Virus record (IMG/VR): IMGVR_UViG_2778261094_000010
Coordinates: 1-48,461 of that record
Strand: one strand, 5' to 3'
DNA from: a virus
Lineage: Duplodnaviria; Heunggongvirae; Uroviricota; Caudoviricetes
DNA length: 48,461 nt
The translations under genes were made by a program, and so were the position numbers. Of this stretch, positions 15,812 through 38,350 are shown in pieces; the first letter of the stretch is position 1, and each line of letters opens with the position of its first letter. The notes under the pieces were generated by a model. It was not told the origin of the DNA and did no database searches. It worked only from the letters and a program-made list of their open reading frames with translations.

Positions 15812-16462
15812 TTAAAATTTAAGATTTTTCAGTGCATTCAGTGCGACATCCACATCCTCAGCATCACGCAGGGATAAAGCGCCATATCCCCCGGCCATGA
15901 ATGCTTTGGCCTGGGTTCGCGAGAGTCCAACATCGCGCAGGACTCGCTCAATAATTTTCTGATCAGGGATCTCCCCACGCGCCAGCGCATTTTTCACATC
16001 GCTGATGCGTGCTTCATCATTGGAAGGAAACGTCACCAGACTGACCTCCCACAGGTCGATCTCTTTCAGCAGGAATACCCCTTTTTCCCGGTCGTACTCC
16101 CAGTCTTTCAGGATGTAGCCAACAGAAAGGCCGGTTAAAGAACCGGCCTTCATATGGGCGTGTGCACGTTTTGCCAGGGGATCATCATCAACGAGTAATC
16201 GCCCCCTGACATAAAGCCCGACATCATCTTCTTTCATTTCGGTGTACACACCGATGGGCTCATCCATGCGGTGCTGCCAGAGCAACGCAGGCAGCGCCTT
16301 TTTTTCGCTCCATTTCTCGAGTGTTGTGGTAAAGGCACCGGGGACCACCACATCATCGTGGCTGTCCTTTACACCAAAGACGGAGCCATACCCTTCAAAC
16401 TCACCGGAGTCACTGACAGATTTCAGACTCAGCGGTACATCAAGACGTTGTTTCGTCTGCAT
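15812..16462 (-). CDS. Prohead protease (HK97 family)
   Basis: HK97-type prohead protease sequence character; start assigned to the ATG at 16462 (MQTKQRLDVP) with an AAGGA ribosome-binding site rather than 16498. Confidence 0.85.
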   Translation of the reverse strand: MQTKQRLDVPLSLKSVSDSGEFEGYGSVFGVKDSHDDVVVPGAFTTTLEKWSEKKALPALLWQHRMDEPIGVYTEMKEDDVGLYVRGRLLVDDDPLAKRAHAHMKAGSLTGLSVGYILKDWEYDREKGVFLLKEIDLWEVSLVTFPSNDEARISDVKNALARGEIPDQKIIERVLRDVGLSRTQAKAFMAGGYGALSLRDAEDVDVALNALKNLKF

Positions 16463-17681
16463 TGGCGTTATCCTTCTGCTTACCGGCTTTACTGCCATCG
16501 GAGGGTTTCGTGGTCATGTTCATCGGTGTGAGATAGACATCCCCACCGGGACGCGGATTCATATCTTCCAGGTCGCGGCAGTCATTGGGAGAGTAAATTC
16601 CCCAGTTAATCCCGGTGGCGTAGGCTTCAAAACGGGATTTCATATCCCCGCGCAGTAACGCCCCGGCGTTAAATTTGGCGTAAAACTTCCCCTGTTTGCT
16701 CTCCCTGACCAGCCCTGTATTGATCCGTTGTTCAATACGGGTCAGATACGGCACAAGGGAATAGTTGATAAATCCGAGCCCCAGCTCTTCAATATTGTTG
16801 AAAGTGGCGCGATCGGTGTTCTGCACCATGTGCAGCGGCACGCGGAAAAGACGACAGATTTCTTCCAGCTGAAACTTGCGGGTTTCCAGGAACTGGCTGT
16901 CCTCGGCGTTCAGTGCCACCGGCTTCCAGTCCAGCCCCATTTCCAGAATCATCGGACGGTGCGCATTACCCAGCCCAAGATGACGCTCCTCAAAATCCCT
17001 CTTCATGCGCTCATAAGCATCCGGCGTGAGCTTTTGTTCCGTACGCAACACACCGGATGTCACAGCACCGTTACCAAACAGCCTGGCGCCGTGCTCCTCG
17101 GTTGCCGCTGCCAGTGAAATGGCCTCGCGCGCATATGCAATGGGATTCAGACCGACAAGTCCATCCAGCGTCAGGGTGCGCACATGCCAGATTTCATCCT
17201 GGGTCAACACATCCACGGAGCCATCCGGAAACGTCACCTGATAAACCGGCTGCCACTGGCTGTTCAGCTTCGGCTCCACACAGCCCGGATCTATCGGAAG
17301 AAGCTCCACTACTTCCCCCAGCGCCTTCACCTTGTAGGCGTAAAAATTCCCCCGCAGACACAGGCAGACAATAACCAGCTCCCAGAATTCCTGCGGCGTC
17401 ATGTAGCCATTGGGTTTTGCTGAAATCAGCTTATGCAGCCGTTCATCCACCGCCCGTGTTTTAAGGGTGCCGCTGATTTTGTAGAGACTGCAGGGCAGCA
17501 TACCAACAGACTCAGCCAGCACCCTGACGCAGGAATACACCGCCGTCAGCCGCATGGCCCGCTGGCTGCTGATCCGCTTTCCGGTATAGGTGTCGTATGA
17601 CAACCCCAGCTCTTCCGCAAGCATCCCGGGCGTTGTGACGGGGGTGTTATTTTTACGTTGAAAAAGCCCCTGGAAAAACAT
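16440..17681 (-). CDS. Portal protein (HK97 family)
   Basis: 413 aa portal-like sequence immediately downstream of the terminase fragment and upstream of the protease. Confidence 0.9.
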   Translation of the reverse strand: MFFQGLFQRKNNTPVTTPGMLAEELGLSYDTYTGKRISSQRAMRLTAVYSCVRVLAESVGMLPCSLYKISGTLKTRAVDERLHKLISAKPNGYMTPQEFWELVIVCLCLRGNFYAYKVKALGEVVELLPIDPGCVEPKLNSQWQPVYQVTFPDGSVDVLTQDEIWHVRTLTLDGLVGLNPIAYAREAISLAAATEEHGARLFGNGAVTSGVLRTEQKLTPDAYERMKRDFEERHLGLGNAHRPMILEMGLDWKPVALNAEDSQFLETRKFQLEEICRLFRVPLHMVQNTDRATFNNIEELGLGFINYSLVPYLTRIEQRINTGLVRESKQGKFYAKFNAGALLRGDMKSRFEAYATGINWGIYSPNDCRDLEDMNPRPGGDVYLTPMNMTTKPSDGSKAGKQKDNANADETTS

Positions 17682-17863
17682 TACTCACCTCCGGAGGCGA
17701 CCCGGTGACCGCGATCGAGATAACGCGCAACCAGCCACGACCAGCACAGACACAGCACCCCGGCAACAACAAAACCCGCCGGGGGATAAATCAGCCAGGC
17801 GCCATACGCCAGCAAAAGCACACCCAGCACGCCCACCAGAGGCGTGAGAATTATCAGAAACAT
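17681..17863 (-). CDS. Small hydrophobic membrane protein, unknown function
   Basis: 60 aa with two predicted transmembrane stretches between the terL C-terminal fragment and the portal gene. Confidence 0.4.
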
Positions 17864-17874
17864 AATGACCTCGG

Positions 17875-18611
17875 TTAAAGCGAGCGAATACCAACGCTGA
17901 CCAGATGTTCAGACAGATCCGGCTCCGGTTCACCGCCATTGACCAGCATCCGGCTCATTGCTGTAAACATCGCAACAGGGCCGTCGATTTTGGCTTCCGG
18001 CGTGGATTTATTCGGGAAGATATTGTCGTTTTTGTCCGGTTTTACCGTAACGTTAGACATCATCCAGTTCATGACCGGATGATTGCTGTGGTGGAAACGC
18101 CCGGCATAGACCAGTGATTCCGTTTCCTTCATGGCCTCTGACAGATTGCGGACCGTCTGCGGAACTTCCACCAGCGGTATACCTTCTTCAGTCAGCGCCA
18201 GACTGAACTGCATTGCGCTCCACGGGTCAAATCCCAGTTCCCTCAGGTTTTCACCGCCAATCCATTCCAGTAGGTCACTTTTGATCTGAGCATGATCGAT
18301 AACATCACCATCCGTCAGGATGAGCTTACCCATCTCCGCCCACTTCCGGTAAAGTTCTGCCTGCTGCCGTGAGCATCGTTCCAGCCGTCCTTCCGGAAGC
18401 CAGAATTTAAAATCGGCATGAACATGCCCGTTATCCGTTCGCCAGAGTTTTGCCGCCGCACAGATATCAATCTTATGAGCAAGGTCGACGCCGACCCACA
18501 TGGGATATGTTTTCAGCTCATGCTGTGGAGCAATGTATTCGCACTTCTCCCACTTAATCATGTCCATCCAGGCAGACTCTGCTGTTACCCACACATTCAT
18601 GTGTTTGGTAA
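17875..18611 (-). pseudogene. terL: Helper prophage terminase large subunit, C-terminal nuclease-domain fragment (3' half of a terL split by the satellite)
   Basis: Translation NVWVTAESAW...WVGVDLAHKID...KIDGPVAMFTAM aligns with the C-terminal nuclease domain of the intact satellite TerL (NIWCQGATPW...AGLDLSSTSD...KIDPSVAALMAF); the reading frame runs up to the 7-bp core at 18605..18611. Confidence 0.8.
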
Positions 18612-18620
18612 GAATATTTC
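18601..18620. repeat. Left attachment junction (attL-like): exact 7-bp core TTGGTAA at 18605..18611 plus imperfect flanking match
   Basis: TTGGTAAgAAtATT here versus TTGGTAAaAAaATT at 33522..33535; marks the boundary between the terL C-fragment and satellite DNA. Confidence 0.65.
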
Positions 18621-18894
18621 AAGTTTTTTAAAATCACCTGTATATCAATCGTTTAACATGAAAAAACAGTCTTTATAAATCATCAAGCAATACACAGCGC
18701 AATACACGTATCTGTATTGTTTTAATGCTGATACACACCGTTTTTTGATACAGTGATTCGACCTACCATCGCGAAGCATTTTTTATTTCTTGTGTGTAAC
18801 AATCTGACGAGGTGAGCACTCAAAGAGATAAGAGGCAGTAGAAATTTCGATCACCCCCCTGAATGCAATTTTTCGTATATATATACAAAACAGC

Positions 18895-19047
18895 GCGGGT
18901 TATGCGGGTTAGCGGGTTATCTTCGCGTGCTAAGTATTTTTTGCTCTTTAATATCAATGCGTTAAAAAACAACGTATTTAAATATCAGCCAGAATGTAAC
19001 CCGCAAGACATTCAAAATAACCCGCACCCCTCCCTCAAATAACCCGC
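18895..19047. repeat. Iteron cluster B: 3 tandem GCGGGTTA(T/G) repeats, AT-rich spacer, 3 inverted (A)TAACCCGC copies
   Basis: Direct copies at 18895..18920, inverted copies at 18997..19004, 19017..19025 and 19039..19047, preceded by a TATATATATA tract; same repeat unit as the cluster downstream of the replication gene. Confidence 0.7.
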
Positions 19048-19128
19048 AAAAACATCCCTGAAAGTGGGTACCGGTAATACTGAAAATTTATTCCATTAAA
19101 TGAGCATTGTCCTCTCTCATCCATTCCG

Positions 19129-20790
19129 TTACACACCATCAAACGCCGCAAGCCGCTCTTTGTGGCTGTCGCTCATATCGAATGCAAATTCCTCATGCTC
19201 TGCCTGGAATGTGCCAAACGCCATCAGCGCCGCAACGCTCGGGTCTATCTTGTTGGATGATTTTTTCTTGTTCGGCTTGATATTGGCGTTCGCGTCACTC
19301 TGCATCACAACATTACTCATTGACCAGGCCAGCACCGGATCGCCACGATGCACAATCACCTTCCGGTTAACAAAAACTTCGAACGATTTCGCCGCCGGAC
19401 TGAAACGAAGGTATGTTTGCGGGAACGGCTCCACCTCAAATCCTGCCCCCTGTAGCTGCGTCCTCAGGTGCGTGGCGTTCCATGTATCGAAGCCCACCAG
19501 CCTGATATTGAAATTCTCTGCATCCGCCATGATGTCATCACGGATACGGTCATAATCAATGCAGTCACCCGGTGTTGTGCGTATCCAGCCCGCCTTTACC
19601 CACTGGCGATAGATGGCGCGGTTTTTATTGGCGGGGTTCTGTAGCTGAAATTCAGGCAGATAGTGACGGGAAACCAGCATAATCTTTTTACCGACCGGAA
19701 AGGCATAGCACACGCTGGAAATATCGCTGGTTGATGATAAGTCCAGCCCCGCGTAGCACTCCTGCCCGTATAAATCCGCCTCCGCGAACGTTCCGGCGCA
19801 CTCCGCCCATGCACCGTTACCCATCCACGGCGTAGCCCCCTGACACCAGATATTGAATCGCTTGGTGAGCATTTCCACCCACTGCGACGGAATACCCCGC
19901 GCTTTCTGGATGGTTGAGGCCAGTTTTTCACGATCGACGGAAACATCGATATTGGGATTCGCCTTTATCCACATCGCCGGATCGTCAACCTCGCTTTCAT
20001 CATCCAGCTCGTAAATCAGCACGAACATGGATTCGTTCACCTCTTCACCATCCAGTATCTGGCAGCAATAGTCATAGTGTTGTTTACAGGCTGAAACAAC
20101 GTTGCTCCCCGATGTGGTGATGGCAAATAACAGCCCCTCCGGACGCGCCCCCATTCCCAGTTCAAGCGCGGAATAAACCCCGTTGTCAGGGTGCAGGTGA
20201 TATTCATCCACAATGGCAAGGCTCGGGTTTGTACCTTCAATGGTTGCCGCTTTTGCTGCCAGTGGCTTTAACAGGCTGTTGGTTTTCGGGTGTATCACCT
20301 TGTGTGCCTGAATATTTACCCGCTTTCGTAACGGTCGGGATAAAAGGCACATCTGACGCGCATCATCAAACACGATCCGCGCCTGATCACGACTCACGGC
20401 GGCGGTGTAAATATCCTGCTGCCCGTTTTCCATAACCAGAAACCAGTTAGCCAGGATAGCGGCGACCGTGGATTTGGCATTTTTTCGCGGCACTTCAATG
20501 AATGCGCTGGTGTATTTGCGCCGTCCGGTGGCCTTAACCTTAAAGCCCAGGATGCACGCAAAGGCGAACTGCTGCCACGGCTCCAGCTCAATGGGGCTAC
20601 CGCGCATTGCGCCTTTTACGTGCGGACACACCCTGGAAAAGGCAATAAACCGCTCCACGACCTCCGGATCGAACGTGTAAAGGGGGTTTTCAAGGTCAGA
20701 AAAATACCGTTTAACGGCCTGTTTCAGTCGTTTACAGGCCGTAATTTTGCCGTTTTTTACGCCTTCTGCGTACTCATGCCAGGCGGTCAA
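19129..20790 (-). CDS. terL: Satellite terminase large subunit (intact)
   Basis: 553 aa with N-terminal ATPase and C-terminal nuclease domain (AGLDLSSTSD, KIDPSVAALMAF); apparent TTG start at 20788..20790 overlapping the TerS stop, preceded by a GAGGAAGAGGA ribosome-binding site. Confidence 0.9.
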   Translation of the reverse strand: MTAWHEYAEGVKNGKITACKRLKQAVKRYFSDLENPLYTFDPEVVERFIAFSRVCPHVKGAMRGSPIELEPWQQFAFACILGFKVKATGRRKYTSAFIEVPRKNAKSTVAAILANWFLVMENGQQDIYTAAVSRDQARIVFDDARQMCLLSRPLRKRVNIQAHKVIHPKTNSLLKPLAAKAATIEGTNPSLAIVDEYHLHPDNGVYSALELGMGARPEGLLFAITTSGSNVVSACKQHYDYCCQILDGEEVNESMFVLIYELDDESEVDDPAMWIKANPNIDVSVDREKLASTIQKARGIPSQWVEMLTKRFNIWCQGATPWMGNGAWAECAGTFAEADLYGQECYAGLDLSSTSDISSVCYAFPVGKKIMLVSRHYLPEFQLQNPANKNRAIYRQWVKAGWIRTTPGDCIDYDRIRDDIMADAENFNIRLVGFDTWNATHLRTQLQGAGFEVEPFPQTYLRFSPAAKSFEVFVNRKVIVHRGDPVLAWSMSNVVMQSDANANIKPNKKKSSNKIDPSVAALMAFGTFQAEHEEFAFDMSDSHKERLAAFDGV

Positions 20791-21130
20791 GCTCGTCCTC
20801 TTCCTCTGTTTCCGGTGGATTTCTGCGGCGACTTACCGGGTCAAAACCCAGCAAAGAAGCCATTTTGATCATTATTCTTTCAGCGTCAGCCTTTGCGCTC
20901 AGGGCGGGGTTTCTGCTCTCGCTGCCCTGACTGTTAACAATGCTGAACCCGCGCGTGGCAAGGTCTTCGACGGCTTTGCGGTATATGGAGTAGTTAACAC
21001 AATACAGCTCCAGATTGCTCCAGTCGGCGGGGGTAAGGTCTTCCCGTCCGGAAAGCTGGCGCGATTTTTCCTTCCACTGCCTGACCGCGATTTCATCCAG
21101 GTAAGCGGGGGCTTTTGGTGGTCTTGCCAT
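20774..21130 (-). CDS. terS: Satellite terminase small subunit (P27-like family)
   Basis: Translation from MARPPKAPAYLDEIAVRQW resembles P27-family small terminases; start assigned to the ATG at 21130. Confidence 0.8.
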   Translation of the reverse strand: MARPPKAPAYLDEIAVRQWKEKSRQLSGREDLTPADWSNLELYCVNYSIYRKAVEDLATRGFSIVNSQGSESRNPALSAKADAERIMIKMASLLGFDPVSRRRNPPETEEEDELDRLA

Positions 21131-21418
21131 GTTCTTTTTTCGCCCAATTATTTTCAAAAAAATTCCCGTGCACAAAAATTTGAGGAGGCGGTCGGTGTCC
21201 GGCAGGGACGGTTTCGTCCTGAAAACCACCCCCACCCCCTCTGACGGCCTCACCAGCGATTGCGAAAACATTCCATGACCTCGCGGTCACGGTCGGTTAA
21301 TCACTTCGCTGTGGTGCGTTTTGTGCGCCCTGTCCTGTTGGCTTTGTGCCCTGTCTCCTGTGTCTTCCATAAGTCACGCTGCCTTATCAGTCCACGTATC
21401 AGCCTGGTTTGCTCCTGT

Positions 21419-21859
21419 TCAGTCATCATCGCCATACATCCAGTCGTTACGGTGTGCTGCCCGTTCTTCCTGCTCGCGATACATGCCCGCCTTACGGTTC
21501 GCTTTCGTGGCTGGATCTTCCCGTGTCGTCTTACGGTTGTGGCACGTCTGGCACAATGCCTGGTGGTTCCACTCAGGCCAGAAGAGAACATCACCGCCGC
21601 CATTGATGGGGATGATGTGATCCACCACAAGAGCTGGCGTATAAATCCCCTTAGCCAGACAACGCACGCATAACGGGTTTTTGCTCAGGTACAGGGCGCG
21701 GTATTTGTCCCACTGTCGGGAATACCCGCGCGCGCGGCGGTGTCCCCGTCTGGCATCCTCTGCACGCCATGCAGCCCGTCTGTGCTCTTCACACTTGCCG
21801 GACTTCACGCGCTTATTACAGCCCGGCTCAGTGCATCGCCTTAATGGTTGCCACGGCAT
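21419..21859 (-). CDS. HNH endonuclease (terminase-associated)
   Basis: Cys-rich zinc-finger motifs (CNKRVKSGKCEEH, CVRC, CQTCH) and HNH-like His/Asn; located upstream of terS-terL as in HK97-like packaging modules. Confidence 0.85.
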   Translation of the reverse strand: MPWQPLRRCTEPGCNKRVKSGKCEEHRRAAWRAEDARRGHRRARGYSRQWDKYRALYLSKNPLCVRCLAKGIYTPALVVDHIIPINGGGDVLFWPEWNHQALCQTCHNRKTTREDPATKANRKAGMYREQEERAAHRNDWMYGDDD

Positions 21860-22161
21860 CAGTACACCCCCACATCACGATAAACCGACCAGAGCGCAGA
21901 AATAGCCATAGGCAGTTCAGACTGCTCCACTGGTGAAACTGCTTCCCTGTTCTCGTACAGGAAAGCGATGTACATCAGGCAACCAACACGCATTGCCGGG
22001 GTAAATTCCAGCCCGTCTTCAAAACGTTTCCCGATATGCTTCTGGCAGGCTTCCAGCGCCGCATCGGTATACATTTTCAGAAGTTCGCCTTCACCGGATA
22101 AATCATCATCAAGTCGAAGATGTGCCCTGACTTCATCAGGTGTAATTCTGGCTTCACTCAT
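21859..22161 (-). CDS. Satellite head-tail connector protein (gp6-like)
   Basis: Translation from MSEARITPDEVRAHLRLDDDL parallels the helper gp6-like protein (MLLKEEEIKSHLRLDD); GGGAGA ribosome-binding site before the ATG at 22161. Confidence 0.7.
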   Translation of the reverse strand: MSEARITPDEVRAHLRLDDDLSGEGELLKMYTDAALEACQKHIGKRFEDGLEFTPAMRVGCLMYIAFLYENREAVSPVEQSELPMAISALWSVYRDVGVY

Positions 22162-23368
22162 CTTTTCTCCCTTTAATTTCCACAGTCTGTTTCCATGCCT
22201 GGCTGAACTCATCACCACCTTCACGCGGCGGCATACCCTCGCGTTCGCGAGCTTCGTTCGGATTCATGATCCCGCTCTTAATCCCTTTCTCATACGTGGC
22301 ATAACGTTCGGTGGGTGTGGCGCGCAGTAAATCGGCTGAATCAAACTCAACCAGATAACGGGTACCAGGTACGGGAGAAGTCACCAGCAAAGCGGCCTTG
22401 ATTTGCTGTTCGAAGTTCGCCAGCCACGGGCGCATTGTCATGGTCAGAAATGCGCGGCTCGCCTCACTGAAATTGCTGTAGGTGCTGTTGCTGTATTCCT
22501 GAAGAAAAATCGGCGACACGTTGAACATCCTGGCGATGTCTTCAATGGAGAAGCGACGGGAGGCCAGCCATTCCGCATCCTGGTTACTCATCCCCAGCTG
22601 CCTGTAATCCATGCCCCCTTCAAGGATTGGCGTTTTTCCGGCATTTTTCGCCCCCTTGTAGCGTTCCAGTGCGTCTAATGCCTGTTTACCTTTCACGCCG
22701 TCCAGCCATTCACCTGACGTGATAATCCCTGCCGCCATCATGCCATCTTTCATAATGCTGGCTCCGTGACGCTGTTGAGCAAGGCCAAGCCCCAGCGCCT
22801 CACGGCAAATCGTGACGGGGGAACGCCCCAGAAAGCCATCATCCGAGGCATAGCGGAGATGCAGAACTTCTTCCTGTAAATACGTGCGCACCGTTCCTGT
22901 ACAGGGTTCGGTGATGGTATAGCGGTATTTGTGTGTGCCTGTGCGTTCCGGTACAACACACCCCGGCGCATAAGGATGAAGTGATTTTGGCTGCCCGTCC
23001 CGCCCCCACTCAATAACCGCATAGGCGTTACCGTTCAGCAGGCAGTGACGCATCATTGTGCGTTTAAACTGGTAAGGTGTCAGGCACGAATTAGGCTGCT
23101 CATTCAGCAGAATATCTACCGGGTGACTGTCCAGCCATTCCCGCGCCTCTCTGCCCTTATCATTGCGTACCAGATACAGGTAACACGGCATCGTGGCCAC
23201 CGCCTCAGCGATGACAGAAACCGCGTTCATCACAGCAGGCAATGATTCAGCCGTCCCGGCAGAAACATATTCTCCGGATCCGGTATTTGGTACACCAGAC
23301 AACGCCAGAAAATCATCAATGGACAGGTTACGCAGATCGCTTTTTTTACGACTAAAAGGCCACCACAT
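22154..23368 (-). CDS. Satellite portal protein (HK97 family)
   Basis: Portal-like sequence; start assigned to the ATG at 23368 (MWWPFSRKK), one nt after the protease stop. Confidence 0.85.
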   Translation of the reverse strand: MWWPFSRKKSDLRNLSIDDFLALSGVPNTGSGEYVSAGTAESLPAVMNAVSVIAEAVATMPCYLYLVRNDKGREAREWLDSHPVDILLNEQPNSCLTPYQFKRTMMRHCLLNGNAYAVIEWGRDGQPKSLHPYAPGCVVPERTGTHKYRYTITEPCTGTVRTYLQEEVLHLRYASDDGFLGRSPVTICREALGLGLAQQRHGASIMKDGMMAAGIITSGEWLDGVKGKQALDALERYKGAKNAGKTPILEGGMDYRQLGMSNQDAEWLASRRFSIEDIARMFNVSPIFLQEYSNSTYSNFSEASRAFLTMTMRPWLANFEQQIKAALLVTSPVPGTRYLVEFDSADLLRATPTERYATYEKGIKSGIMNPNEAREREGMPPREGGDEFSQAWKQTVEIKGRKDE

Positions 23369-23369
23369 A

Positions 23370-23930
23370 TCACAACCCCGCCAGTTCAGCCCAGCGATGA
23401 CGATTATTTCCTGCCGGGCGTAATTCAGGGTACTGTGCAAACAACGAACGGTGGGCAATCTCCACGCCGGATTCGGGATAAGCAGGCATCGATGTTATCG
23501 TGATTTCACGGAGTTCTGCGGCGGTTACAGTACGCAGATACGGTTTTTGCGCGATATTCCACTCCTCGCATAATGCGCGAAAGCCAAAGCTCATTCCTGT
23601 AATATCGCCACGTTCCACCAGCGTAAGCACATCTTTTCCAAGCTGGGTATTTGGCGGTGTCAGTTCAAAACGTAGCCCGGTGTTATCCTCAGTCAGTACC
23701 AGTGAGCCGGATTTGGTACGCCCCAGCAGTTGGGTATAGTCATGCTCATACAGACAGCGCACATCATTACCCGCCGCCAGATAGTCAGCAAAAGCCCCCG
23801 GCGTGAACTGTTCGCGAAACTCGTCCCAGATAATTTCTGAAAGGCTGTTCCAGCGAACGGCATAACCCACCAGTTTTTTATCGCTGGCGGTCAGTTCAGA
23901 TGTACGGATTTCAAAATCGGTGTTTTTCAT
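23370..23930 (-). CDS. Satellite prohead protease (HK97 family)
   Basis: Translation from MKNTDFEIRTSELTASDKKLVGYAVRWN with conserved His/Ser regions (YEHD, GMSFGF); GGAG ribosome-binding site before the ATG at 23930. Confidence 0.85.
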   Translation of the reverse strand: MKNTDFEIRTSELTASDKKLVGYAVRWNSLSEIIWDEFREQFTPGAFADYLAAGNDVRCLYEHDYTQLLGRTKSGSLVLTEDNTGLRFELTPPNTQLGKDVLTLVERGDITGMSFGFRALCEEWNIAQKPYLRTVTAAELREITITSMPAYPESGVEIAHRSLFAQYPELRPAGNNRHRWAELAGL

Positions 23931-23979
23931 CGGTGTACTCCATAAAGCTGAAAAAGGAGGCCGAAGCCCCCTTTGCTCA

Positions 23980-25125
23980 TTACTTGCCAGCCTGAATTTC
24001 CAGAATCTTGATGGCGTTCGAATCCACCACACCACCGCCCAGATATTTCTGGGTATAGATGTTAATGAATCCAGGCTCGCTGAAATCCGGACGGGTACGC
24101 GTACCGGTTTTATGGTCAACGATGAAATAACCGCGCTTAAAGTCACCGACTGCAATCACACCGTCCGGCATAAATTCCAGATATTCAACCGGAAGCCCCA
24201 GCAGAGAATCAGGATCACCAGCCTGTAAACGATCGCGCCAGATGTAATCACCAGTGGCATTTTTCAGTTTTTGTGCGGAGGCGGCTGTATTTGAGTTCAT
24301 CACCCATACAGCTTTTTTGCGGTACTTATTGCGCAGCGTAAATTTCAGGTCAATCAGCATATCGGCGCTGAGACTGCCAGTCACTTTTTTCGTCTGGAGC
24401 GTACCGAAAGGACGGGTTTTGTCATTATCCGTAGTGCGCGGGAAAGTCAGGAAACCTTTGGCTTTTTTCTCGCCATCACCGGAAACCAGATCCGTTTCTT
24501 CGGTATCAACGAAAGTGTCGCCAATTTCAGAAGATAACCAGCCCATAATATCGACTTCGGAAAAATCGATAATTTCCTGAGTGGTTTTCGGGTAAGCGTA
24601 GATCGGATACAGGCGGATACTGACTTCATTCAGTTTTGGGGTTGCCGTCTGGTTACGTGCCGCACCTTCTTCGCCGTGTCCCACGACCGCACCCCCGGCA
24701 GAAACCAGTTGCTTAAATTCATTACTGTGAATGGTTTTAACAGTACAGATTTTACGCATCACCGACTCATCAGAAAGCTGACGCATAATTTCTCTGTTCA
24801 GTTCCGGGATAACCGTATAACCACCATCAGCCGGAACACTGCCGGACAGGTTGCGGGTTTCCCCGGTCAGAATGTAAGAGCGTAGCTCGTCTTTGGTGAT
24901 TTTATCTTCGACGGGAACACCAGGCTGGTTACGTTCTTCATCAGCCACAGACTCGAGGCGGGAAATTTCTGTGTCGAGGGAATCGGCTTTTGCACGCAGT
25001 TCATCAAACTGTTTGCCCTCGTCATCGGTTAGACTGCGGTTTTCACTGTCGGCTTTTTCCAGCAGGGATCGCATCTGGTTTTTCAGGGCGGTTTTTTGCT
25101 GGCGGAGTTCGATTAATTTCTTCAT
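23980..25125 (-). CDS. Satellite major capsid protein (HK97 fold)
   Basis: 381 aa; N-terminal coiled-coil delta-like domain followed by an HK97 core (ADGGYTVIPEL); homologous in outline to the helper capsid protein but clearly diverged. Confidence 0.9.
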   Translation of the reverse strand: MKKLIELRQQKTALKNQMRSLLEKADSENRSLTDDEGKQFDELRAKADSLDTEISRLESVADEERNQPGVPVEDKITKDELRSYILTGETRNLSGSVPADGGYTVIPELNREIMRQLSDESVMRKICTVKTIHSNEFKQLVSAGGAVVGHGEEGAARNQTATPKLNEVSIRLYPIYAYPKTTQEIIDFSEVDIMGWLSSEIGDTFVDTEETDLVSGDGEKKAKGFLTFPRTTDNDKTRPFGTLQTKKVTGSLSADMLIDLKFTLRNKYRKKAVWVMNSNTAASAQKLKNATGDYIWRDRLQAGDPDSLLGLPVEYLEFMPDGVIAVGDFKRGYFIVDHKTGTRTRPDFSEPGFINIYTQKYLGGGVVDSNAIKILEIQAGK

Positions 25126-25360
25126 GAAGGTTTTCTCGCATTGGTTAAGATTCAGGACGTGAAACCAACACGGGGGGAGCGCCGCCCGACACTCTCGGCA
25201 TCTCGCAGATCAACCCGGCATCGCGCAGGGGGTCAGGCGGCATTGTGGCGGCTCACGTCTGAGTGCCACACGCCAACATATACATAAAAATCAGTATGTA
25301 AACATCAGCCAGAATCACCGAACAACCTGGAACAACCACGAACAAATAATTTACAAAACC

Positions 25361-25396
25361 TGAAAAAAGGCCCGGAAAAAATCCGGGCCTTTATCG
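25361..25396 (-). terminator. Rho-independent terminator (bidirectional hairpin GGCCCGG-N7-CCGGGCC flanked by A and T runs)
   Basis: Perfect 7-bp stem with A6 upstream and T-rich downstream, immediately 3' of the minus-strand gene ending at 25399. Confidence 0.7.
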
Positions 25397-25398
25397 CT

Positions 25399-25647
25399 TT
25401 ATTGTTTCACTGGCTCCCGCATTCTGCGTCTTATTTTCCACAAATATTCGATCATCGCTTCCACCTGCTCACGGTTGGTTGCGAAAATTTCCCCGGTCAG
25501 TGAGCTACGCAGAAAATCATGATGATCCACAAAAAATAACGCATCGGAAGAAAGCAACCGACGATATTTTTTTGCTGTCGTGGTTTCCAGATCATCAAAA
25601 CCATGAAGCTTTTTATGTTGCTGAACTTCTTCAAATGTCACTGGCAT
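25399..25647 (-). CDS. Hypothetical satellite protein
   Basis: 82 aa ORF overlapping the upstream gene end and followed by a terminator; no recognisable motif. Confidence 0.4.
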   Translation of the reverse strand: MPVTFEEVQQHKKLHGFDDLETTTAKKYRRLLSSDALFFVDHHDFLRSSLTGEIFATNREQVEAMIEYLWKIRRRMREPVKQ

Positions 25648-26180
25648 GTATCCCCCTTTGCTGCCCGGCGCTGGCGCTTGTGCTTCTCATTCAGCACCAT
25701 CAGCCGTGTTTCTGCCTCCTGCTGTTCCTGTGGTGTCACTTCCCCACATGGCTGGCCTTTCAGGTCGTAACGTGCGCCACCAGCTATCAGGGCGCGGTAA
25801 TAGCGCGGAGACTGCGCATAGGATGCCAGCGTCGCACGTAATACCCCCGACCCGAATGCCAGCCCCCTGACGGCGATATCCTGCATCAGGTCGTCGAATA
25901 TCCCCACCTTAAGCGGCTTCGGTGCTTTATGGCTGAATAAGTCAGGCCACATCTCAGTGAGGCGGTTAACGCGTCGGCGGTTTTTGCGCTGCCTTTTGGT
26001 CATATGCTGCCACGGTGTCGCCCCTGCGGTCTTCTGTTTGCGGCTCTGCTGTGCGTTCTGATTATCGGGTATCACTTTATGCGCCGATGTGGTTTTATCC
26101 TGCTCTTGCGCCGCCTGCGTCGTTTTCTGCGGCGTGCCGTAAATGCCTTTCGGCTTCCGGTTAATGGTCAGCGTTGTCAT
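25638..26180 (-). CDS. ProQ/FinO-family RNA-binding protein (putative RNA chaperone)
   Basis: Basic N-terminus, then a FinO/ProQ-like core (PLKVGIFDDL...RYDLKG). Confidence 0.55.
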   Translation of the reverse strand: MTTLTINRKPKGIYGTPQKTTQAAQEQDKTTSAHKVIPDNQNAQQSRKQKTAGATPWQHMTKRQRKNRRRVNRLTEMWPDLFSHKAPKPLKVGIFDDLMQDIAVRGLAFGSGVLRATLASYAQSPRYYRALIAGGARYDLKGQPCGEVTPQEQQEAETRLMVLNEKHKRQRRAAKGDTCQ

Positions 26181-26216
26181 GCCTTCCCCCGTAATTACTC
26201 TGTTCGCTGTTGTGAA

Positions 26217-26642
26217 TTAAAACGGTATGTTATCCCCGTACGGGTCATCGTGCTGGCTTGTCTGTTGTTTTGCCCTGTTCAGTGCGTCAGTGGCCTGGCC
26301 CTGTTGACCTTTTTTGCCGCCCGGTCGCGCCGTTCGCGCACTGATTACGCTGTCTGCAATAACCTGCCAGCCCTGCCGCGTTTCCCCGTTCTGGCCTGTC
26401 CACTGGCTCACCTGCATGTTACCCGCCACGCTCACCAGTTCGCCTTTGTGGTGTTTTGCCAGTGCGTCGGCCTGTCTGCCAAACGCCAGGACAGATAACC
26501 ACATCGTCGCCGTTCCGTCATCTGCCTGGCTGCACGGCAGGGGAACCGCCATACTCGCCATCGCCATTTGTGTCCCTTTGCTGGTGGTCTTTAACTGCGG
26601 GTCAGCCACCAGCCGCCCGTAAGCCGCTATCTGTGCTGTCAT
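26217..26642 (-). CDS. ssb: Single-stranded DNA-binding protein (SSB)
   Basis: OB-fold-like N-terminal region, Gly/Gln-rich linker and an acidic C-terminal tail ending DDPYGDNIPF (compare the canonical SSB DDDIPF tail). Confidence 0.7.
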   Translation of the reverse strand: MTAQIAAYGRLVADPQLKTTSKGTQMAMASMAVPLPCSQADDGTATMWLSVLAFGRQADALAKHHKGELVSVAGNMQVSQWTGQNGETRQGWQVIADSVISARTARPGGKKGQQGQATDALNRAKQQTSQHDDPYGDNIPF

Positions 26643-26706
26643 GCTGTCTGTTCTCCGGTTTTAACGTTGATTGTTACGCTTGTTTACACCCTTACGGTGA
26701 AATTCT

Positions 26707-26829
26707 GCGGGTTATAATCGCACTTTTGCGGGTTATAACTGCCGTTTTGCGGGTTACGTGCGGGTTATTGATTTCCTTTTTATTCATACAGTTAATGCAC
26801 TTATACACAGGATAACCCGCATAACCCGC
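26707..26829. repeat. Iteron cluster A (putative satellite replication origin): 4 direct GCGGGTTA(T/C) repeats, AT-rich spacer, 2 inverted ATAACCCGC copies
   Basis: Direct copies at 26707..26715, 26728..26736, 26749..26757 and 26760..26768; inverted copies at 26812..26829; located just downstream of the replication protein gene. Confidence 0.7.
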
Positions 26830-26852
26830 AACTTTTTACATCACACAGGGGG

Positions 26853-28976: not shown

Positions 28977-29287
28977 TTTGCCTTTCCCCGTTCACGAATA
29001 ATTTCACGTACTGCCTTAATGCGTTCCATTCCTGTAACGCGCATGATTCTGTCGATGTCGCTTAATTCTGCTGGTGGTGCTTTGCTTACCAGGGGGAACT
29101 CCCTTTCAAAGCGCATATGCGACGACACGCAGGGATGCGCATAACCTTCGCGGATATAGGTCACGCGAAAATCATCGACGGTTTTAATCGTTATCGTGCT
29201 GCCGTATTTATCCCGGAAAATATCGCCGGGGCGGATTTCAGGCCGAGCGTGACCGCTGGCAGTAAAGCCAGAATTTTTCTTTTTCAT
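28973..29287 (-). CDS. Hypothetical satellite protein
   Basis: Start assigned to the ATG at 29287 (MKKKNSGF); translationally coupled to the replication gene. Confidence 0.4.
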   Translation of the reverse strand: MKKKNSGFTASGHARPEIRPGDIFRDKYGSTITIKTVDDFRVTYIREGYAHPCVSSHMRFEREFPLVSKAPPAELSDIDRIMRVTGMERIKAVREIIRERGKAK

Positions 29288-29294
29288 GTTTTTT

Positions 29295-29543
29295 TTACTC
29301 CAGAGGCAGCTTTTTAGCGGCGAGCTCAATATCAGATGTCAGAGAAACCTGTGTATTTGCCAGGTCTAACAACAAAGAAATAAGAATTTCTTCTCTGCTA
29401 TCGGATTTATCGGTGCTAAGGCTGTTCATCCACATATTGACGACTTCCCTGATTTTTTTCGCAGAGTGCAGGGCTTCAAATGCCAGGCCTTCAATATCAT
29501 GTTTATTTCGCATAATCGCCCCCGCCATTTTCACAATCAGCAA
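29295..29543 (-). CDS. Hypothetical satellite protein
   Basis: 82 aa ORF in the early operon; no recognisable motif. Confidence 0.35.
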   Translation of the reverse strand: MLIVKMAGAIMRNKHDIEGLAFEALHSAKKIREVVNMWMNSLSTDKSDSREEILISLLLDLANTQVSLTSDIELAAKKLPLE

Positions 29544-29748
29544 TCAGGATGGCTTTTGCCTCATTCAGCGCCATATCAGCACTAAATTGCATAAGAGCCA
29601 GTGAGTGAGGAACGAAAGCCCCGGTATATTCTGTTTCGCTGGTGGCGTGCTTATGCGCCTTGTCTGCGATAACAGAAATATCAATCAGCGCGTGCATCAG
29701 CGTTTTGATGGCTTCGGCGGCTGCGTCCGGTGTGGTTTTATTATGCAT
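29503..29748 (-). CDS. Hypothetical satellite protein
   Basis: 81 aa ORF in the early operon; no recognisable motif. Confidence 0.35.
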   Translation of the reverse strand: MHNKTTPDAAAEAIKTLMHALIDISVIADKAHKHATSETEYTGAFVPHSLALMQFSADMALNEAKAILIADCENGGGDYAK

Positions 29749-29944
29749 AGGTTTCCCCCTGGCGAATACGGGCGGCGAATACCATCACGCAGCCATCAGG
29801 AGATTGCTGACGCGCTTCCTGTTCGCTGGTGGCCTCAATGGTAATCACGCGCGGTTGTGCCGTGCTCAGGGCGATAAAACGCCAGATGTATTTATTCAGG
29901 TTGTACGAGTCCCGCCCTTGCGGGTGTCTGGTATAATTTCTCAT
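29741..29944 (-). CDS. Hypothetical small protein, first gene of the minus-strand early operon
   Basis: 67-codon ORF (MRNYTRHPQGRDSYNL...) with a GAGG ribosome-binding site, transcribed divergently from the operator region. The listed 349-aa ORF is treated as a read-through artefact. Confidence 0.4.
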   Translation of the reverse strand: MRNYTRHPQGRDSYNLNKYIWRFIALSTAQPRVITIEATSEQEARQQSPDGCVMVFAARIRQGETYA

Positions 29945-33537: not shown

Positions 33538-34549
33538 CCCGCGCAGAGACCTGTTCTTTCGCTTTTTTCGCCAGGCGACGCAGATCATCCCAGCGTTTAC
33601 AGATGCCCAGGCCGGGATTCGCTTTCTGCCAGACCGTTTCATCAAACGGATCATCTCCCTCATCGAGGGTGTAAATAATCGCAAAGTAGGAGTCGTCTTT
33701 TACCGCGCCCTCCACGTCGCTGTTATAGCCTCGCAATACCTTGATGGCGTAATCGCGTTGCTCGTAACAAATCCCTTCCTTGTTAAAGCCAGCCGTGGTG
33801 ATACCAAATAACAGGGACTGCAGACGGGCACCGGTTGCCGTTTCCAGAACGTCCCACACGTCGCGGGTTTTATGTGCATGCAGCTCATCAATAATGGCGC
33901 AGTGGATGTTCAGACCATCCAGGTTGTTTGCATCCGAGGAAAGCGGTTCAAATTTTGATGCGCTCTGCTCCTGGTAAATCGCCAGCTTGTTGAAATCAAA
34001 CAACCGCCCGAGTGTCGATCGGGCTTTTCTGACCATATTTTTGGCGTCTTCAAACACGATTCTGGCCTGGTCACGCGTGGTTGCGGCTGAATACACCTCA
34101 GCCCCGCCTTCACCATCTGCCCCCGTCATATACAGACCGATACCTGATGACAGGGTTGATTTTGCGTTTTTACGGGCGACTTCGTTGTACGCTGTCCGGA
34201 AACGGCGCACCATCACCGGGCGTCCGCTGCCATCGCTGCGCATGACAACTTCCCCGGTCTCTTCATTCACCAGCGGAATGACAAAACCAAAAATATTAAT
34301 GAGGATAAAAACATGCCAGTCCATCAGTTCAATGGGCTGACCTGCCAGCGCCCCTTTTACATGGGGCACAAATTTGTAGAAATTCAGGATGTGCTGCGCA
34401 CGGGGTTCACTGAAATAAATCCCCCGCTCTTCGCCGTACTTCAGATCATCAAGAAAACGCTGGCAGGCCAGACGGACAAATTCACCAGCGACAATTTCTC
34501 CTGCAACAACACGTTCGGCGTAGCGGATCCCGTCAGCCACTTTTGCCAT
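33522..34549 (-). pseudogene. terL: Helper prophage terminase large subunit, N-terminal ATPase-domain fragment (5' part of a terL split by the satellite)
   Basis: Translation through DETVWQKANPGLGI...ARVNFFTKK parallels satellite TerL (DDPAMWIKANPNID...EMLTKRFNIW), then runs into unrelated low-complexity sequence (VTSRRNNSATCPDFF...) after the junction at about 33522; the ORF's true stop is at 33356. Confidence 0.8.
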
Positions 34550-35031
34550 CAGTCTCTCGCTTTTAAAAGTTCTGCCAGCGGATCAACATCATCCGGTCCG
34601 GCGATATTTACTTTCGCCCGGCTTGCCGGTGACATACCAAATTCTGCAAGCATCGCCCGGATCCGCTTCCAGGCATCCGCTTTCATCGCAGCAGCCGGGT
34701 GTGCCTTAATCAGCACATCACCGTTCTGCGTTTCCGTGCGGTAGGTATAACCCTCAACATCGAGTGTTTCGCAGTGATGCCGGTATTCGGTGTAGGCTTC
34801 CACCAGCAACTCGAGTGCACGCGCATCAAGCTGAGAAATGATCCCTTCCGCATTCAGCTCTTCCGCCATTCGCCTGAACCAGTACTTTCCCTGCGCCCCT
34901 AAATGCTGCGGAATTTTAGGGAGACCTTTTTCGTCCTTTTTAGCGGTTTTTTTGGCGTCTTTAACGGGACGCTTTGAGGGATTGCCTCGTATCAAATGCA
35001 GGCGTGGCGGGGTTTTCGGGGGTCCTGACAT
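34549..35031 (-). CDS. terS: Helper terminase small subunit (P27-like family)
   Basis: 160 aa, MSGPPKTPPRLHLIRGNPSKRP...; its stop overlaps the terL ATG; homologous in outline to the satellite TerS but diverged. Confidence 0.8.
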   Translation of the reverse strand: MSGPPKTPPRLHLIRGNPSKRPVKDAKKTAKKDEKGLPKIPQHLGAQGKYWFRRMAEELNAEGIISQLDARALELLVEAYTEYRHHCETLDVEGYTYRTETQNGDVLIKAHPAAAMKADAWKRIRAMLAEFGMSPASRAKVNIAGPDDVDPLAELLKARD

Positions 35032-35178
35032 AATCGATTTTACCTATCAATCGTTTGATCGCATTCCCAAAAAAAAGTTTTCGAACCTGCGGCGATGCGA
35101 GGAAGGGTTGGCGGGCGGTCCCGGACAGCCAGGGCTGCAGGGATTTGCCCCGCCCCTCCCTACAAGTGAGAATAATTA

Positions 35179-35529
35179 TCACCTGATTCGTTCGCGCGCT
35201 GTTTTCGCTTTATGGCAGGGCCAGCACAGACTCTGCAGGTTGCTGTCTGCGTCTGTTCCGCCATGCGCTTTCGGGCTGATGTGGTCGACGGTTTTCGCCT
35301 CGCTCACCACACCGGCACGCAGACACAACTGACACAGACCTTTATCGCGCTTCAGAATACGGGCACGAATCACCGTCCATTTTGAGCCATAGCCACGCTG
35401 GTGGCGGCTCAGTCCGCGCTGGTGCTGCACCCAGCCTTCACCGCGATGCTTATCGCAGTAACCCGAACTGTCTGTTGTTGTGCCTGCACATCCACGCTTA
35501 CGACAGGCGCGGGGTATTCGTGATGGCAT
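35179..35529 (-). CDS. HNH endonuclease (terminase-associated)
   Basis: Cys-rich zinc-finger and HNH motifs (CRKRGC, CDKH, CQLC, CWPCH); start assigned to the ATG at 35529 with an AAGGAGA ribosome-binding site. Confidence 0.85.
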   Translation of the reverse strand: MPSRIPRACRKRGCAGTTTDSSGYCDKHRGEGWVQHQRGLSRHQRGYGSKWTVIRARILKRDKGLCQLCLRAGVVSEAKTVDHISPKAHGGTDADSNLQSLCWPCHKAKTARERIR

Positions 35530-38343: not shown

Positions 38344-38350
38344 TATGTGA

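What the first reader, a model, noticed from the sequence alone, without database searches (positions are those of the whole stretch)
21130..21419. Candidate packaging (cos) sites: C-rich tracts at matching positions upstream of both terS genes
The satellite has CCACCCCCACCCCCTC at 21226..21242, about 100 bp upstream of its terS, and the helper has GCCCCGCCCCTCCC at 35147..35160, about 115 bp upstream of its terS. Both lie in the HNH-terS intergenic region, where HK97-like phages place cos. Similar but non-identical motifs would fit related yet distinct terminase specificities.
Basis: inference. Interest (0 to 1): 0.35.

Follow-up and report, generated by a model that had tools for sequence, protein, structure and literature searches.

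The report
Upstream G-block of two cos sites
The two C-rich tracts are real and sit inside genuine HK97-type DNA-packaging (cos) sites of a capsid-forming phage satellite and of the prophage it is inserted in, but they are a conserved accessory block about 31 bp upstream of the cut site, not the cohesive ends.

Summary
CCACCCCCACCCCCTC lies at 21226-21241 and GCCCCGCCCCTCCC at 35147-35160, each between an HNH gene and a P27-family terS gene on the minus strand.

Both intergenic regions are HK97-type cos regions, but the flagged tracts are not the cut sites. On the coding strand they read as a G-block (GGGGNGGGG...). This block lies 30-32 bp upstream of the 10-nt cohesive-end sequence in every lineage examined: HK97, HK022, Pseudomonas phage D3, mEp235, phi467, phiP27, SfV, Klebsiella and Morganella phages, and 76 unique cf-PICI relatives.

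The predicted cohesive-end sequences are:
- Satellite: 21185-21194 (sense CGACCGCCTC).
- Flanking prophage: 35108-35117 (sense CGCCCGCCAA).

For the satellite family, a 15.5-kb virome contig in excised gene order supports this. It begins and ends exactly either side of that 10-mer and lacks it, as expected for trimmed 3' overhangs.

The G-block travels with HNH and not with TerS. Prophage and phiP27 share 98% HNH identity but only 18% TerS identity. It is therefore unlikely to set TerS specificity, which probably lies in the A/T-tract region downstream of the cut.

This is a new member of a known kind, of modest interest.

The parts
21226..21241 (-). Sense strand reads GAGGGGGTGGGGGTGG. Conserved upstream cos subsite.
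   Evidence: Sequence. Conservation is 0.93 across 44 unique cf-PICI sequences. The block sits at a fixed 31-nt distance from the cohesive-end 10-mer in 73 of 76 unique relatives.
21195..21225 (-). 31-nt spacer. It comprises the conserved TTTTCAGGAC (21216-21225) and a variable stretch (21195-21215).
   Evidence: Conservation is 0.98 for TTTTCAGGAC. The stretch scored as variable spacer (21197-21215) is 0.73. The length is constant across relatives.
21185..21194 (-). Predicted satellite cohesive-end sequence (cosN), sense CGACCGCCTC. Probably a 10-nt 3' overhang.
   Evidence: It aligns with the HK97, phiP27 and SfV cohesive ends. IMG/VR contig 3300022664_000095 ends ...GGCAC and starts CTCAAATTTTT, lacking exactly this 10-mer.
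21148..21184 (-). Post-cut conserved block CTCAAATTTTT followed by GTGCACGGGAATTTTTTTGAAAATAA. Candidate TerS-binding (cosB-like) site, with a T7 tract at +23..+29.
   Evidence: Conservation is 0.996 for CTCAAATTTTT and near 1.0 for ATTTTTTTGAAAATAA. HK97 TerS binds +15..+29, which includes an A/T tract (PMC11331095). HK97 has a T7 tract at +24..+30.
20774..21130 (-). Satellite terS (118 aa, Terminase_4 / P27 family).
   Evidence: Pfam E-value 1.6e-23. RefSeq annotation of a 99% identical element.
21419..21859 (-). Satellite HNH endonuclease.
   Evidence: Pfam HNH, E-value 8.8e-10; annotation.
19129..20790 (-). Satellite terL (553 aa).
   Evidence: Pfam TerL_ATPase and TerL_nuclease domains.
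35147..35160 (-). Sense strand reads GGGAGGGGCGGGGC.
   Evidence: Sequence. It lines up with the G-blocks of HK97, HK022, D3, mEp235, phi467, phiP27, SfV, and Klebsiella and Morganella phages.
35108..35117 (-). Predicted prophage cohesive-end sequence (cosN), sense CGCCCGCCAA.
   Evidence: It aligns with the annotated phiP27 cos CGCCCGCCCC, the HK97 right terminus CGCCGCCAAA, and the measured SfI cos TGCCCGCCCC. Megablast similarity to phiP27 stops at window 35110.
35066..35107 (-). Post-cut region with a T8 tract (sense GAAAACTTTTTTTTGGG at 35066-35082). Candidate TerS site, shared with phi467-type phages.
   Evidence: Alignments. The conserved CGCCGCAGGTT(A/C)GAAAACTTTTTT is also present in mEp235, Klebsiella and Morganella phages.
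34549..35031 (-). Prophage terS (160 aa, Terminase_4).
   Evidence: Pfam E-value 1.2e-25.
35179..35529 (-). Prophage HNH endonuclease (116 aa), 98% identical to phiP27 HNH.

Best explanation
Both intergenic regions are cos sites of the HK97 / phiP27 type, in which packaging depends on an HNH endonuclease. Read on the coding (minus) strand, each has the same layout: HNH gene, G-block, a 30-31 bp spacer, a C-rich 10-nt sequence that becomes the cohesive end, an A/T-tract region, then terS. The terminase cuts 30-31 bp further on, at 21185-21194 in the satellite and 35108-35117 in the prophage. The cut most likely leaves 10-nt 3' overhangs. Shown: the layout, its conservation, the fixed spacing, and the position of the physical ends in relatives. 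Inferred: TerS recognises the A/T-tract region downstream of the cut, as in HK97, and this region gives the satellite and the prophage separate packaging specificity, because it is unrelated between them. Inferred and less certain: the G-block is a generic upstream cos subsite used by the conserved nuclease part of the machine (TerL nuclease with HNH). It would position or license the cut, most plausibly at termination, when the motor arrives from the HNH side. In that role it would resemble lambda cosQ.
For: (1) Gene context. HNH, Terminase_4 terS and HK97-like terL are present in both modules. (2) Physical-end references. The HK97 record ends ...GGGCAGGGGGGGGGATCAAATC-N-GAC CGCCGCCAAA and starts GTTTGAATTT...GATTTTTTT. 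HK022 and Pseudomonas phage D3 have the same layout. SfI showed a measured 10-nt gap, TGCCCGCCCC (PMC3636060), and that sequence lies on the terS side in SfV. The phiP27 record annotates a 10-nt cos at the homologous position. (3) Line-up of 12 lineages. The G-block 3' edge is 30-32 nt from the 10-mer in all of them. In 76 unique cf-PICI cos regions the spacer is 31 nt in 73 and 30 nt in 3, while the 10-mer has 22 variants. (4) A cos-to-cos contig. IMG/VR contig 3300022664_000095 (15,518 nt) has the excised gene order terS-terL-int-primase-capsid-portal-HNH. It starts at CTCAAATTTTT and ends at ...GGCAC, missing exactly the 10-mer. Loss at both ends is what end-repair does to 3' overhangs. (5) The 16.5-kb record of the induced element vB_KppS-Ant lacks a 69-nt stretch centred on the same place. 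(6) Conservation profile across the family: G-block 0.93, TTTTCAGGAC 0.98, variable spacer 0.73, 10-mer 0.85, CTCAAATTTTT 0.996. (7) The composite motif occurs only at the two sites in the window, against 0.04 expected. (8) HK97 TerS binds +15..+29 downstream of the cut (PMC11331095). The satellite has a T7 tract at +23..+29. (9) Satellite and prophage proteins are distant: TerS 27%, HNH 38%, TerL 31% identity.
Against: No virion DNA of this very element or prophage was examined, so both cut sites rest on homology. The cos-to-cos contig is a single metagenomic assembly from a relative about 85% identical in TerS, and no second such contig was found. The phiP27 cos is taken from a GenBank feature; the original paper could not be read. 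Overhang polarity is inferred, not measured. No experiment known to me tests the G-block in any HK97-like phage, so its role is inference from conservation and position. The prophage spacer is 30 rather than 31 nt, and its T tract lies at +32..+39, further from the cut than in HK97.
Confidence: 0.78

Rival explanations
1. One reading: the C-rich tract is itself the cohesive-end or cleavage sequence, and its small differences encode terminase specificity.
For: The tract lies in the right intergenic region. It resembles known cos overhangs of this group in composition, for example CCCGCCCC in the phiP27 and SfI cos. The two arms are loosely inverted copies of each other.
Against: The HK97, HK022 and D3 record termini, the SfI gap, the phiP27 annotation and the cf-PICI cos-to-cos contig all put the ends in the other, terS-proximal tract. 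SfI's TGCCCGCCCC matches the terS-side block of SfV exactly and does not match the reverse complement of its G-block. The tract is shared between phages with 18% identical TerS.
Confidence: 0.04
2. The G-block has no function of its own. It persists through common descent and hitch-hiking with the adjacent HNH gene at the right genome end.
For: It always lies next to HNH and moves with it in mosaics. No experimental test of it is known.
Against: It is kept from Escherichia to Pseudomonas phage D3, where the flanking sequence is unrelated. Within the cf-PICI family the variable spacer next to it (0.73) and the sequence upstream of it (0.60) drift while the block stays at 0.93-0.98. The spacing to the cut is fixed in 73 of 76 unique sequences.
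Confidence: 0.12
3. The G-block and the C-rich cohesive-end block pair with each other as a hairpin or cruciform, or the G-block forms a G-quadruplex. On this reading the DNA structure, not a sequence, is what the terminase recognises.
For: Minimum-free-energy folds of the single strand pair the two blocks in the satellite and in the prophage. The G-block has three or more G-runs.
Against: Fold energies are no better than shuffles, with z-scores of -0.94, -0.77 and +0.43 for HK97. Across 44 family members no pair shows a compensatory change, and several pairs are mostly broken, for example 17 of 44 and 7 of 44 paired. The HK97 blocks are poorly complementary. G-quadruplex formation was not tested.
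Confidence: 0.06
4. The tract belongs to transcription or translation signals, such as a terminator after HNH or the small ORF, a promoter or leader for terS, or coding sequence of an N-terminally extended terS.
For: A weak terminator-like hairpin overlaps the satellite tract (5 pairs). An ORF at 20774-21271 reads through the tract in the terS frame.
Against: Terminator-like hits are at the chance level, 2 found against 1.2 expected, and there are none at the prophage site. No promoter-like site lies on the coding strand. There is no Rfam match. The extended ORF is not conserved: relatives carry an in-frame TGA just before the terS ATG (sequence read directly).
Confidence: 0.04

Closest known systems
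HK97 / HK022 cos site (HNH gp74-dependent, 10-nt 3' cohesive ends)
   Same: Same gene context, HNH at the right end and terS at the left. Same layout: a G-run, about 31-32 bp, GAC then a C-rich 10-mer, then an A/T tract about 24-30 bp after the cut. HK97 TerS binds that A/T-tract region.
   Different: The 10-mer and the post-cut sequences differ. TerS belongs to the P27 (Terminase_4) family rather than the HK97 gp1 type. Nothing was measured for the window's elements.
phiP27 / SfV / SfI cos (CGCCCGCCCC, TGCCCGCCCC)
   Same: The prophage's HNH (98% aa), G-block, spacer and 8 of 10 cohesive-end bases match phiP27. Some satellite relatives, including a fragment recovered on EDL933, carry exactly CGCCCGCCCC.
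   Different: Downstream of the cut the prophage switches to a phi467-type cosB region, terS and terL. TerS is 18% identical to phiP27 TerS.
Packaging module of capsid-forming PICIs (EcCIEDL933 type)
   Same: The satellite has the gene set and order described for Proteobacterial cf-PICIs: capsid-protease-portal-connectors-HNH-terS-terL, with int and primase and no tail genes. cf-PICI DNA is reported to have cohesive ends.
   Different: The two cf-PICI preprints I could read (2022 and 2025 bioRxiv) give no mapped cos position. Here it is placed to the base by homology and by one virome contig. This copy sits inside a prophage terL gene instead of a chromosomal site.
Lambda cosQ (GGGTCCT, 24-30 bp upstream of the cosN nick)
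   Same: A short conserved element about 2.5-3 helical turns upstream of the cut, on the side from which the motor arrives. In lambda it is required for termination and does not determine specificity.
   Different: No sequence similarity. Lambda makes 12-nt 5' overhangs and has no HNH partner. The function of the G-block is untested.
Pseudomonas phage D3 cos
   Same: GGGGTGGGGCGGG TCAAAACC..., then 30 nt, then CGCGCCCCCA at the physical right end, next to an HNH gene.
   Different: Different host and unrelated flanking sequence. The overhang length is taken from the record terminus only.

Membership tests
HK97-type (HNH-associated) cos site | Lies between an HNH endonuclease gene (right genome end) and terS-terL (left end) | tested here: met
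   Pfam HNH, Terminase_4 and TerL domains flank both sites.
HK97-type (HNH-associated) cos site | Defined genome ends at a fixed sequence, with a 10-nt cohesive end | tested here: inconclusive
   Met in a family relative: a cos-to-cos contig lacks exactly 10 nt. Met in reference phages. For the window's own two elements the position rests on alignment only.
HK97-type (HNH-associated) cos site | 3' polarity of the overhang | not testable with these tools
   Loss of the 10-mer from both contig ends fits trimming of 3' overhangs during end-repair. This is an inference, not a measurement.
HK97-type (HNH-associated) cos site | TerS recognition site with an A/T tract about 15-30 bp downstream of the cut | tested here: met
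   The satellite has a T7 tract at +23..+29, against +24..+30 in HK97. The prophage has a T8 tract at +32..+39, which is a looser fit. Binding itself cannot be tested here.
HK97-type (HNH-associated) cos site | Cleavage stimulated by the HNH protein together with TerL | not testable with these tools
   Requires biochemistry or genetics.
Conserved G-block subsite (defined here) | G-run of the form GGGGNGGGG(N)GG(G) ending 30-32 bp upstream of the cohesive-end 10-mer | tested here: met
   Both window sites, 10 reference lineages and 76 unique cf-PICI sequences.
Lambda cosQ | Conserved 7-bp sequence GGGTCCT | tested here: not met
   The lambda right end was read. There is no such sequence at either window site.
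Lambda cosQ | Required for packaging termination (nicking at the downstream cos) | not testable with these tools
   Only the position is analogous.
Capsid-forming PICI (cf-PICI) | 10-18 kb element with int, replication module, capsid, protease, portal, connectors, HNH, terS and terL, and no tail or lysis genes | tested here: met
   Element at about 18620-33520 (14.9 kb). RefSeq annotation of a 99% identical copy, Pfam, and the criteria quoted from the 2025 preprint.
Capsid-forming PICI (cf-PICI) | Induced by a helper phage and uses helper tails | not testable with these tools
   Nothing here shows that the flanking prophage is the helper.

The most novel reading that the evidence does not exclude
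The G-block is a previously undissected third subsite common to HNH-dependent HK97-type cos sites, from enterobacterial phages and cf-PICI satellites to Pseudomonas phage D3. The HNH-TerL nuclease complex would dock on it and measure about three helical turns to the bottom-strand nick. It would be inherited as one module with the HNH gene and exchanged at cosN independently of the terS/cosB specificity module.
Probability: 0.35. Interest if true: 0.5.

Novelty: new member of a known kind. Interest (0 to 1): 0.35.

Why it matters
The result places the cos cut sites of a cf-PICI satellite and of the prophage around it to the base. The cf-PICI literature I could read does not give this position. 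It also separates three parts of the site: a generic upstream G-block, a variable 10-nt cohesive end, and a divergent post-cut region that probably binds TerS. This gives a concrete explanation of how a satellite and a related phage in the same cell could package their own DNA exclusively: the cut-site architecture is shared, and the TerS sites differ. It also yields direct targets for mutagenesis. The fixed 31-bp spacing of the G-block across distant phages is a simple, testable regularity in a model packaging system (HK97) whose upstream cos requirements appear not to have been dissected.

Tried and rejected
- **Contig-end pile-ups.** I scanned JGI/ENA metagenome contigs for the G-block (38 hits) and IMG/VR for the prophage-type post-cut sequence (119 rows, scan truncated). 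Neither gave cos-ended contigs. Several loci that seemed to end near cos (L106, L154, L186, L325) were storage-chunk boundaries and not contig ends.
- **Start of the cos-ended contig.** Two specific patterns and a terS protein search failed to find it. A degenerate pattern then found it.
- **Record termini as evidence.** mEp235, SfII and SfV records are linearised arbitrarily, at the terS ATG or a few bases from cos, so they do not give physical ends. Klebsiella phage P12620-1 is a 106-kb record that merely ends about 70 nt before the site.
- **Hairpin or cruciform between the two blocks.** Rejected: fold z-scores are insignificant and there is no covariation.
- **Promoter, terminator or RNA family explanations.** Rejected.
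- **Papers not held.** The original phiP27 paper (Recktenwald and Schmidt 2002) and Kala et al. 2014 could not be read. A search for earlier descriptions of the G-run in HK97 or D3 cos found nothing relevant, so I cannot say whether the older literature already noted it.

Full report
**Setting**

Almost all genes in the window are on the minus strand, so the coding (sense) strand is the reverse complement of the window.

The segment at about 18620-33520 is a 14.9-kb element. It carries an integrase (32142-33386), a DUF927 primase, SSB, a ProQ-like gene, major capsid, prohead protease, portal, a head-tail connector, HNH (21419-21859), a small ORF, a P27-family terS (20774-21130) and terL (19129-20790). 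It has no tail genes. A 99% identical copy sits in the yifB gene of E. coli WP8-S18-ESBL-07 and is annotated in this way. Pfam confirms the packaging genes. This is the gene set of a capsid-forming PICI as described by Alqurainy et al. and He et al..

On both sides of it lies a phi467/phiP27-like prophage with its own HNH (35179-35529) and terS (34549-35031). That prophage's terL is split by the element (see "Noticed in passing").

**Check of the observation**

The two tracts exist as described. CCACCCCCACCCCCTC is at 21226-21241, 96-111 nt upstream of the satellite terS start. GCCCCGCCCCTCCC is at 35147-35160, 116-129 nt upstream of the prophage terS start.

C-richness alone is only marginally unusual:
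- The satellite tract is the only 14-mer in the window with at least 12 C, against 0.29 expected.
- At 11 of 14 there are 5 tracts, against 3.0 expected.
- GGGGNGGGG occurs 3 times, against 1.8 expected.

What is far beyond chance is the composite layout. A G-block followed 31 nt later by ACCGNCCGCC, with up to 2 mismatches, occurs exactly twice in the window, at these two places. The expectation is 0.04, and none of 100 shuffles reaches two matches.

**Where the cohesive ends are in relatives**

- **phiP27.** The prophage region matches phage phiP27 from window 35110 rightwards. The phiP27 record annotates a 10-nt cos-site, CGCCCGCCCC on the phage strand, between HNH and terS.
- **SfI and SfV.** For the related phage SfI, sequencing of virion DNA ends revealed a 10-nt gap, TGCCCGCCCC, relative to the prophage (PMC3636060). 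In SfV that sequence is the terS-proximal block, while the HNH-proximal block reads GGGGAGGGGCGGG.
- **HK97, HK022 and D3.** The HK97 record ends with ...GGGCAGGGGGGGGGATCAAATCTTCAAAACCTTTGCCCCAAATGAC CGCCGCCAAA and starts with GTTTGAATTTAACGCTAACCCGATTTTTTT. Its termini are treated here as the physical cohesive ends; consistent with this, the published +15..+29 TerS site falls on the record's T tract when base 1 is taken as +1. HK97 ends carry 10-nt 3' overhangs. HK022 is the same, and Pseudomonas phage D3 ends ...GGGGTGGGGCGGGTCAAAACCTTAGAACCTTTCGTTAGGACAC CGCGCCCCCA.

Lining up HK97, HK022, D3, mEp235, phi467, the window's prophage, phiP27, SfV, a Klebsiella phage, a Morganella phage, E. 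coli phage 733R5 and the satellite gives one architecture. That architecture is a G-block, a 30-32 nt spacer that begins TCAAA(T/A)C in the phages and TTTTCAGGAC in the satellites, (G)AC, a C-rich 10-mer, and then an A/T-rich stretch before terS.

**The satellite family**

I took 80 IMG/VR loci encoding relatives of the satellite TerS, plus pattern hits. From these I extracted 44 unique upstream sequences and computed per-column conservation:

| Segment | Window coordinates | Conservation |
|---|---|---|
| G-block | 21226-21241 | 0.93 |
| TTTTCAGGAC | 21216-21225 | 0.98 |
| Variable spacer | 21197-21215 | 0.73 |
| Predicted cohesive-end 10-mer | 21185-21194 | 0.85 |
| CTCAAATTTTT | 21174-21184 | 0.996 |
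| ATTTTTTTGAAAATAA | within 21145-21173 | about 1.0 |
| Upstream of the G-block | 21242-21262 | 0.60 |

In 76 unique cos regions the distance from the G-block to the 10-mer is 31 nt in 73 and 30 nt in 3. The 10-mer itself has 22 variants, for example CACCCGCCCC, CGACCGCCTC and CGCCCGCCCC. So the flanks and the spacing are constrained, while the cohesive-end sequence is free to vary at several positions.

**Physical ends in the satellite family**

One IMG/VR contig, 3300022664_000095 (15,518 nt), is informative.
- Its gene order is terS, terL, integrase, primase, capsid, protease, portal, then connectors and HNH, all on one strand. This is the excised, circularised-then-cut order, not the integrated one.
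- It begins CTCAAATTTTTACGCACGGTGATTTTTTTGAAAATAAAAC.
- It ends ...GGGGTGGGGGAGGTTTTCAGGACAAAACCCAAGCCGCAAGGCAC. The locus table confirms that these are true contig ends.
- In every relative, exactly 10 nt lie between G(G/A)CAC and CTCAAATTTTT, for example CACCCGCCCC in L113. The contig lacks them at both ends.

A linear DNA with 3' overhangs loses them during end-repair, whereas 5' overhangs would be filled in and so duplicated. The contig therefore fits 10-nt 3' cohesive ends at precisely the position predicted from HK97 and phiP27.

In support, the 16.5-kb GenBank record of the induced element vB_KppS-Ant is linear. It lacks a 69-nt stretch centred on the same place (compared with L065).

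Transferred to the window, the satellite's cohesive-end sequence is sense CGACCGCCTC at 21185-21194.

**What the flagged tract is**

It is the G-block, a conserved part of the cos region upstream of the cut. Three results bear on its role.

1. It does not track TerS. The prophage shares its G-block, spacer and 8 of 10 cohesive-end bases with phiP27, at about 96% DNA identity, and its HNH is 98% identical. Its TerS is only 18% identical and its TerL type 38% identical. The mosaic junction falls at cosN. The block therefore works with very different TerS proteins and is not the TerS specificity determinant.
2. There is no sign that it pairs with the C-rich block. Single-strand folds are no better than shuffles. 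Across 44 sequences no pair changes in a compensatory way, and some pairs are mostly broken.
3. It is not explained by promoters, terminators, known RNA families or coding sequence.

Its position, about three helical turns upstream of the cut on the side from which the packaging motor arrives, recalls lambda cosQ. That element (GGGTCCT) lies 24-30 bp upstream of the nick. It is required for termination and is conserved irrespective of cosB specificity (PMC4669245).

My best inference is therefore a generic upstream subsite used by the TerL-nuclease/HNH part of the machine. This step is not shown by any data.

**Specificity**

HK97 TerS binds positions +15 to +29 after the cut, a segment with an A/T tract (PMC11331095).
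- The satellite has CTCAAATTTTTGTGCACGGGAATTTTTTTGAAAATAA after its predicted cut, with a T7 tract at +23..+29.
- The prophage has CCCTTCCTCGCATCGCCGCAGGTTCGAAAACTTTTTTTTGGG, with its T tract at +32..+39. This stretch is unrelated to the satellite's, and it is shared with phi467, mEp235, Klebsiella and Morganella phages.

The satellite and prophage proteins are distant: TerS 27%, HNH 38% and TerL 31% identical. Separate packaging specificities are therefore plausible. The likely determinant is this post-cut region, not the C-rich tract.

**Verdict**

These are cos regions, but the tracts are an upstream accessory block and the cut sites lie 30-31 bp closer to terS. The system is a new member of a known kind, HK97/phiP27-type cos. 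Two modest additions are a base-level placement of the cf-PICI cos and the fixed spacing of a G-block across distant phages. The remaining uncertainty is that nothing was measured on this element itself, and the function of the G-block is inferred.

**Noticed in passing**

phi467 terL aligns to window 16456-18618 and 33522-35099. Pfam places the break within the TerL nuclease domain. An imperfect 15-17 nt direct repeat, TTGGTAA(G/A)AA(T/A)ATTTC, flanks the insertion. The satellite is therefore integrated inside the prophage's terL gene. The same int|terL junction is present in 36 of 5,426 complete E. coli genomes and in several IMG/VR contigs. I found no description of this in the papers searched.

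Noticed in passing
window 18605-18621 and 33521-33536 (junctions); prophage terL fragments at 17875-18600 and 33356-34549: The cf-PICI-type satellite (about 18620-33520, 14.9 kb) is integrated inside the terL gene of the flanking phi467/phiP27-like prophage. It splits the nuclease domain and is flanked by an imperfect direct repeat, TTGGTAA(G/A)AA(T/A)ATTTC. The prophage cannot make an intact large terminase unless the satellite excises. The same junction occurs in 36 of 5,426 complete E. coli genomes from humans, pigs and poultry. A 99% identical satellite with a different integrase end sits in yifB in other strains.
   Followed up: partly
window 35108-35117: The mosaic boundary of the prophage falls at the cos cut site. 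To the HNH side it is phiP27-like (HNH 98% aa, DNA about 96%). To the terS side it is phi467-like (97% DNA), with TerS only 18% identical to phiP27 TerS. Thus cos separates two exchangeable modules.
   Followed up: partly
window 18895-18920 and 19000-19060: A cluster of short repeats lies just inside the satellite's left end, downstream of terL. GCGGGTTA occurs three times, followed by TAACCCGC three times in the opposite orientation. One copy is embedded in a further C-rich tract, CCCGCACCCCTCCC (19021-19034). This may be an origin or a recombinase/excisionase binding array.
   Followed up: no
window 18687-18707 and 33371-33391: A 21-nt direct repeat, GCAATACACAG(C/T)GCAATACAC, lies about 70-150 bp inside each end of the satellite. 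It could be an integrase arm-type site.
   Followed up: no
window 21301-21435 (minus strand): The small conserved ORF between the satellite HNH and cos is 61 aa in relatives and ends ...RE(V/L)MECFRNRW. In this copy a CGA-to-TGA change at 21301-21303 truncates it to 44 aa. The same variant is seen in at least one IMG/VR relative (L022). The function of this protein is unknown.
   Followed up: partly
L004 (LR881103.1, 'Escherichia phage vB_KppS-Ant'): This GenBank 'phage' record is a cf-PICI-type satellite genome of 16.5 kb, with int, primase, capsid, portal, HNH, terS and terL. It lacks 69 nt around its cos site.
   Followed up: partly
L092/L093 (PQ569648.1, Klebsiella phage P12620-1): The 106-kb record ends within a cf-PICI-type satellite segment, about 70 nt before that segment's cos site. 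Whether this reflects a chimeric assembly was not checked.
   Followed up: no
window 38180-38426 and 44438-44613 (minus strand): The prophage carries three tRNA genes in tandem and a sok antitoxin RNA (Rfam RF01794, 120 bits), implying a hok/sok-type module.
   Followed up: no
window 36349-36357 (minus strand): A third GGGGCGGGG occurs, inside an ORF of the prophage lysis/late region. It has no downstream cohesive-end-like block and is probably a chance match.
   Followed up: no
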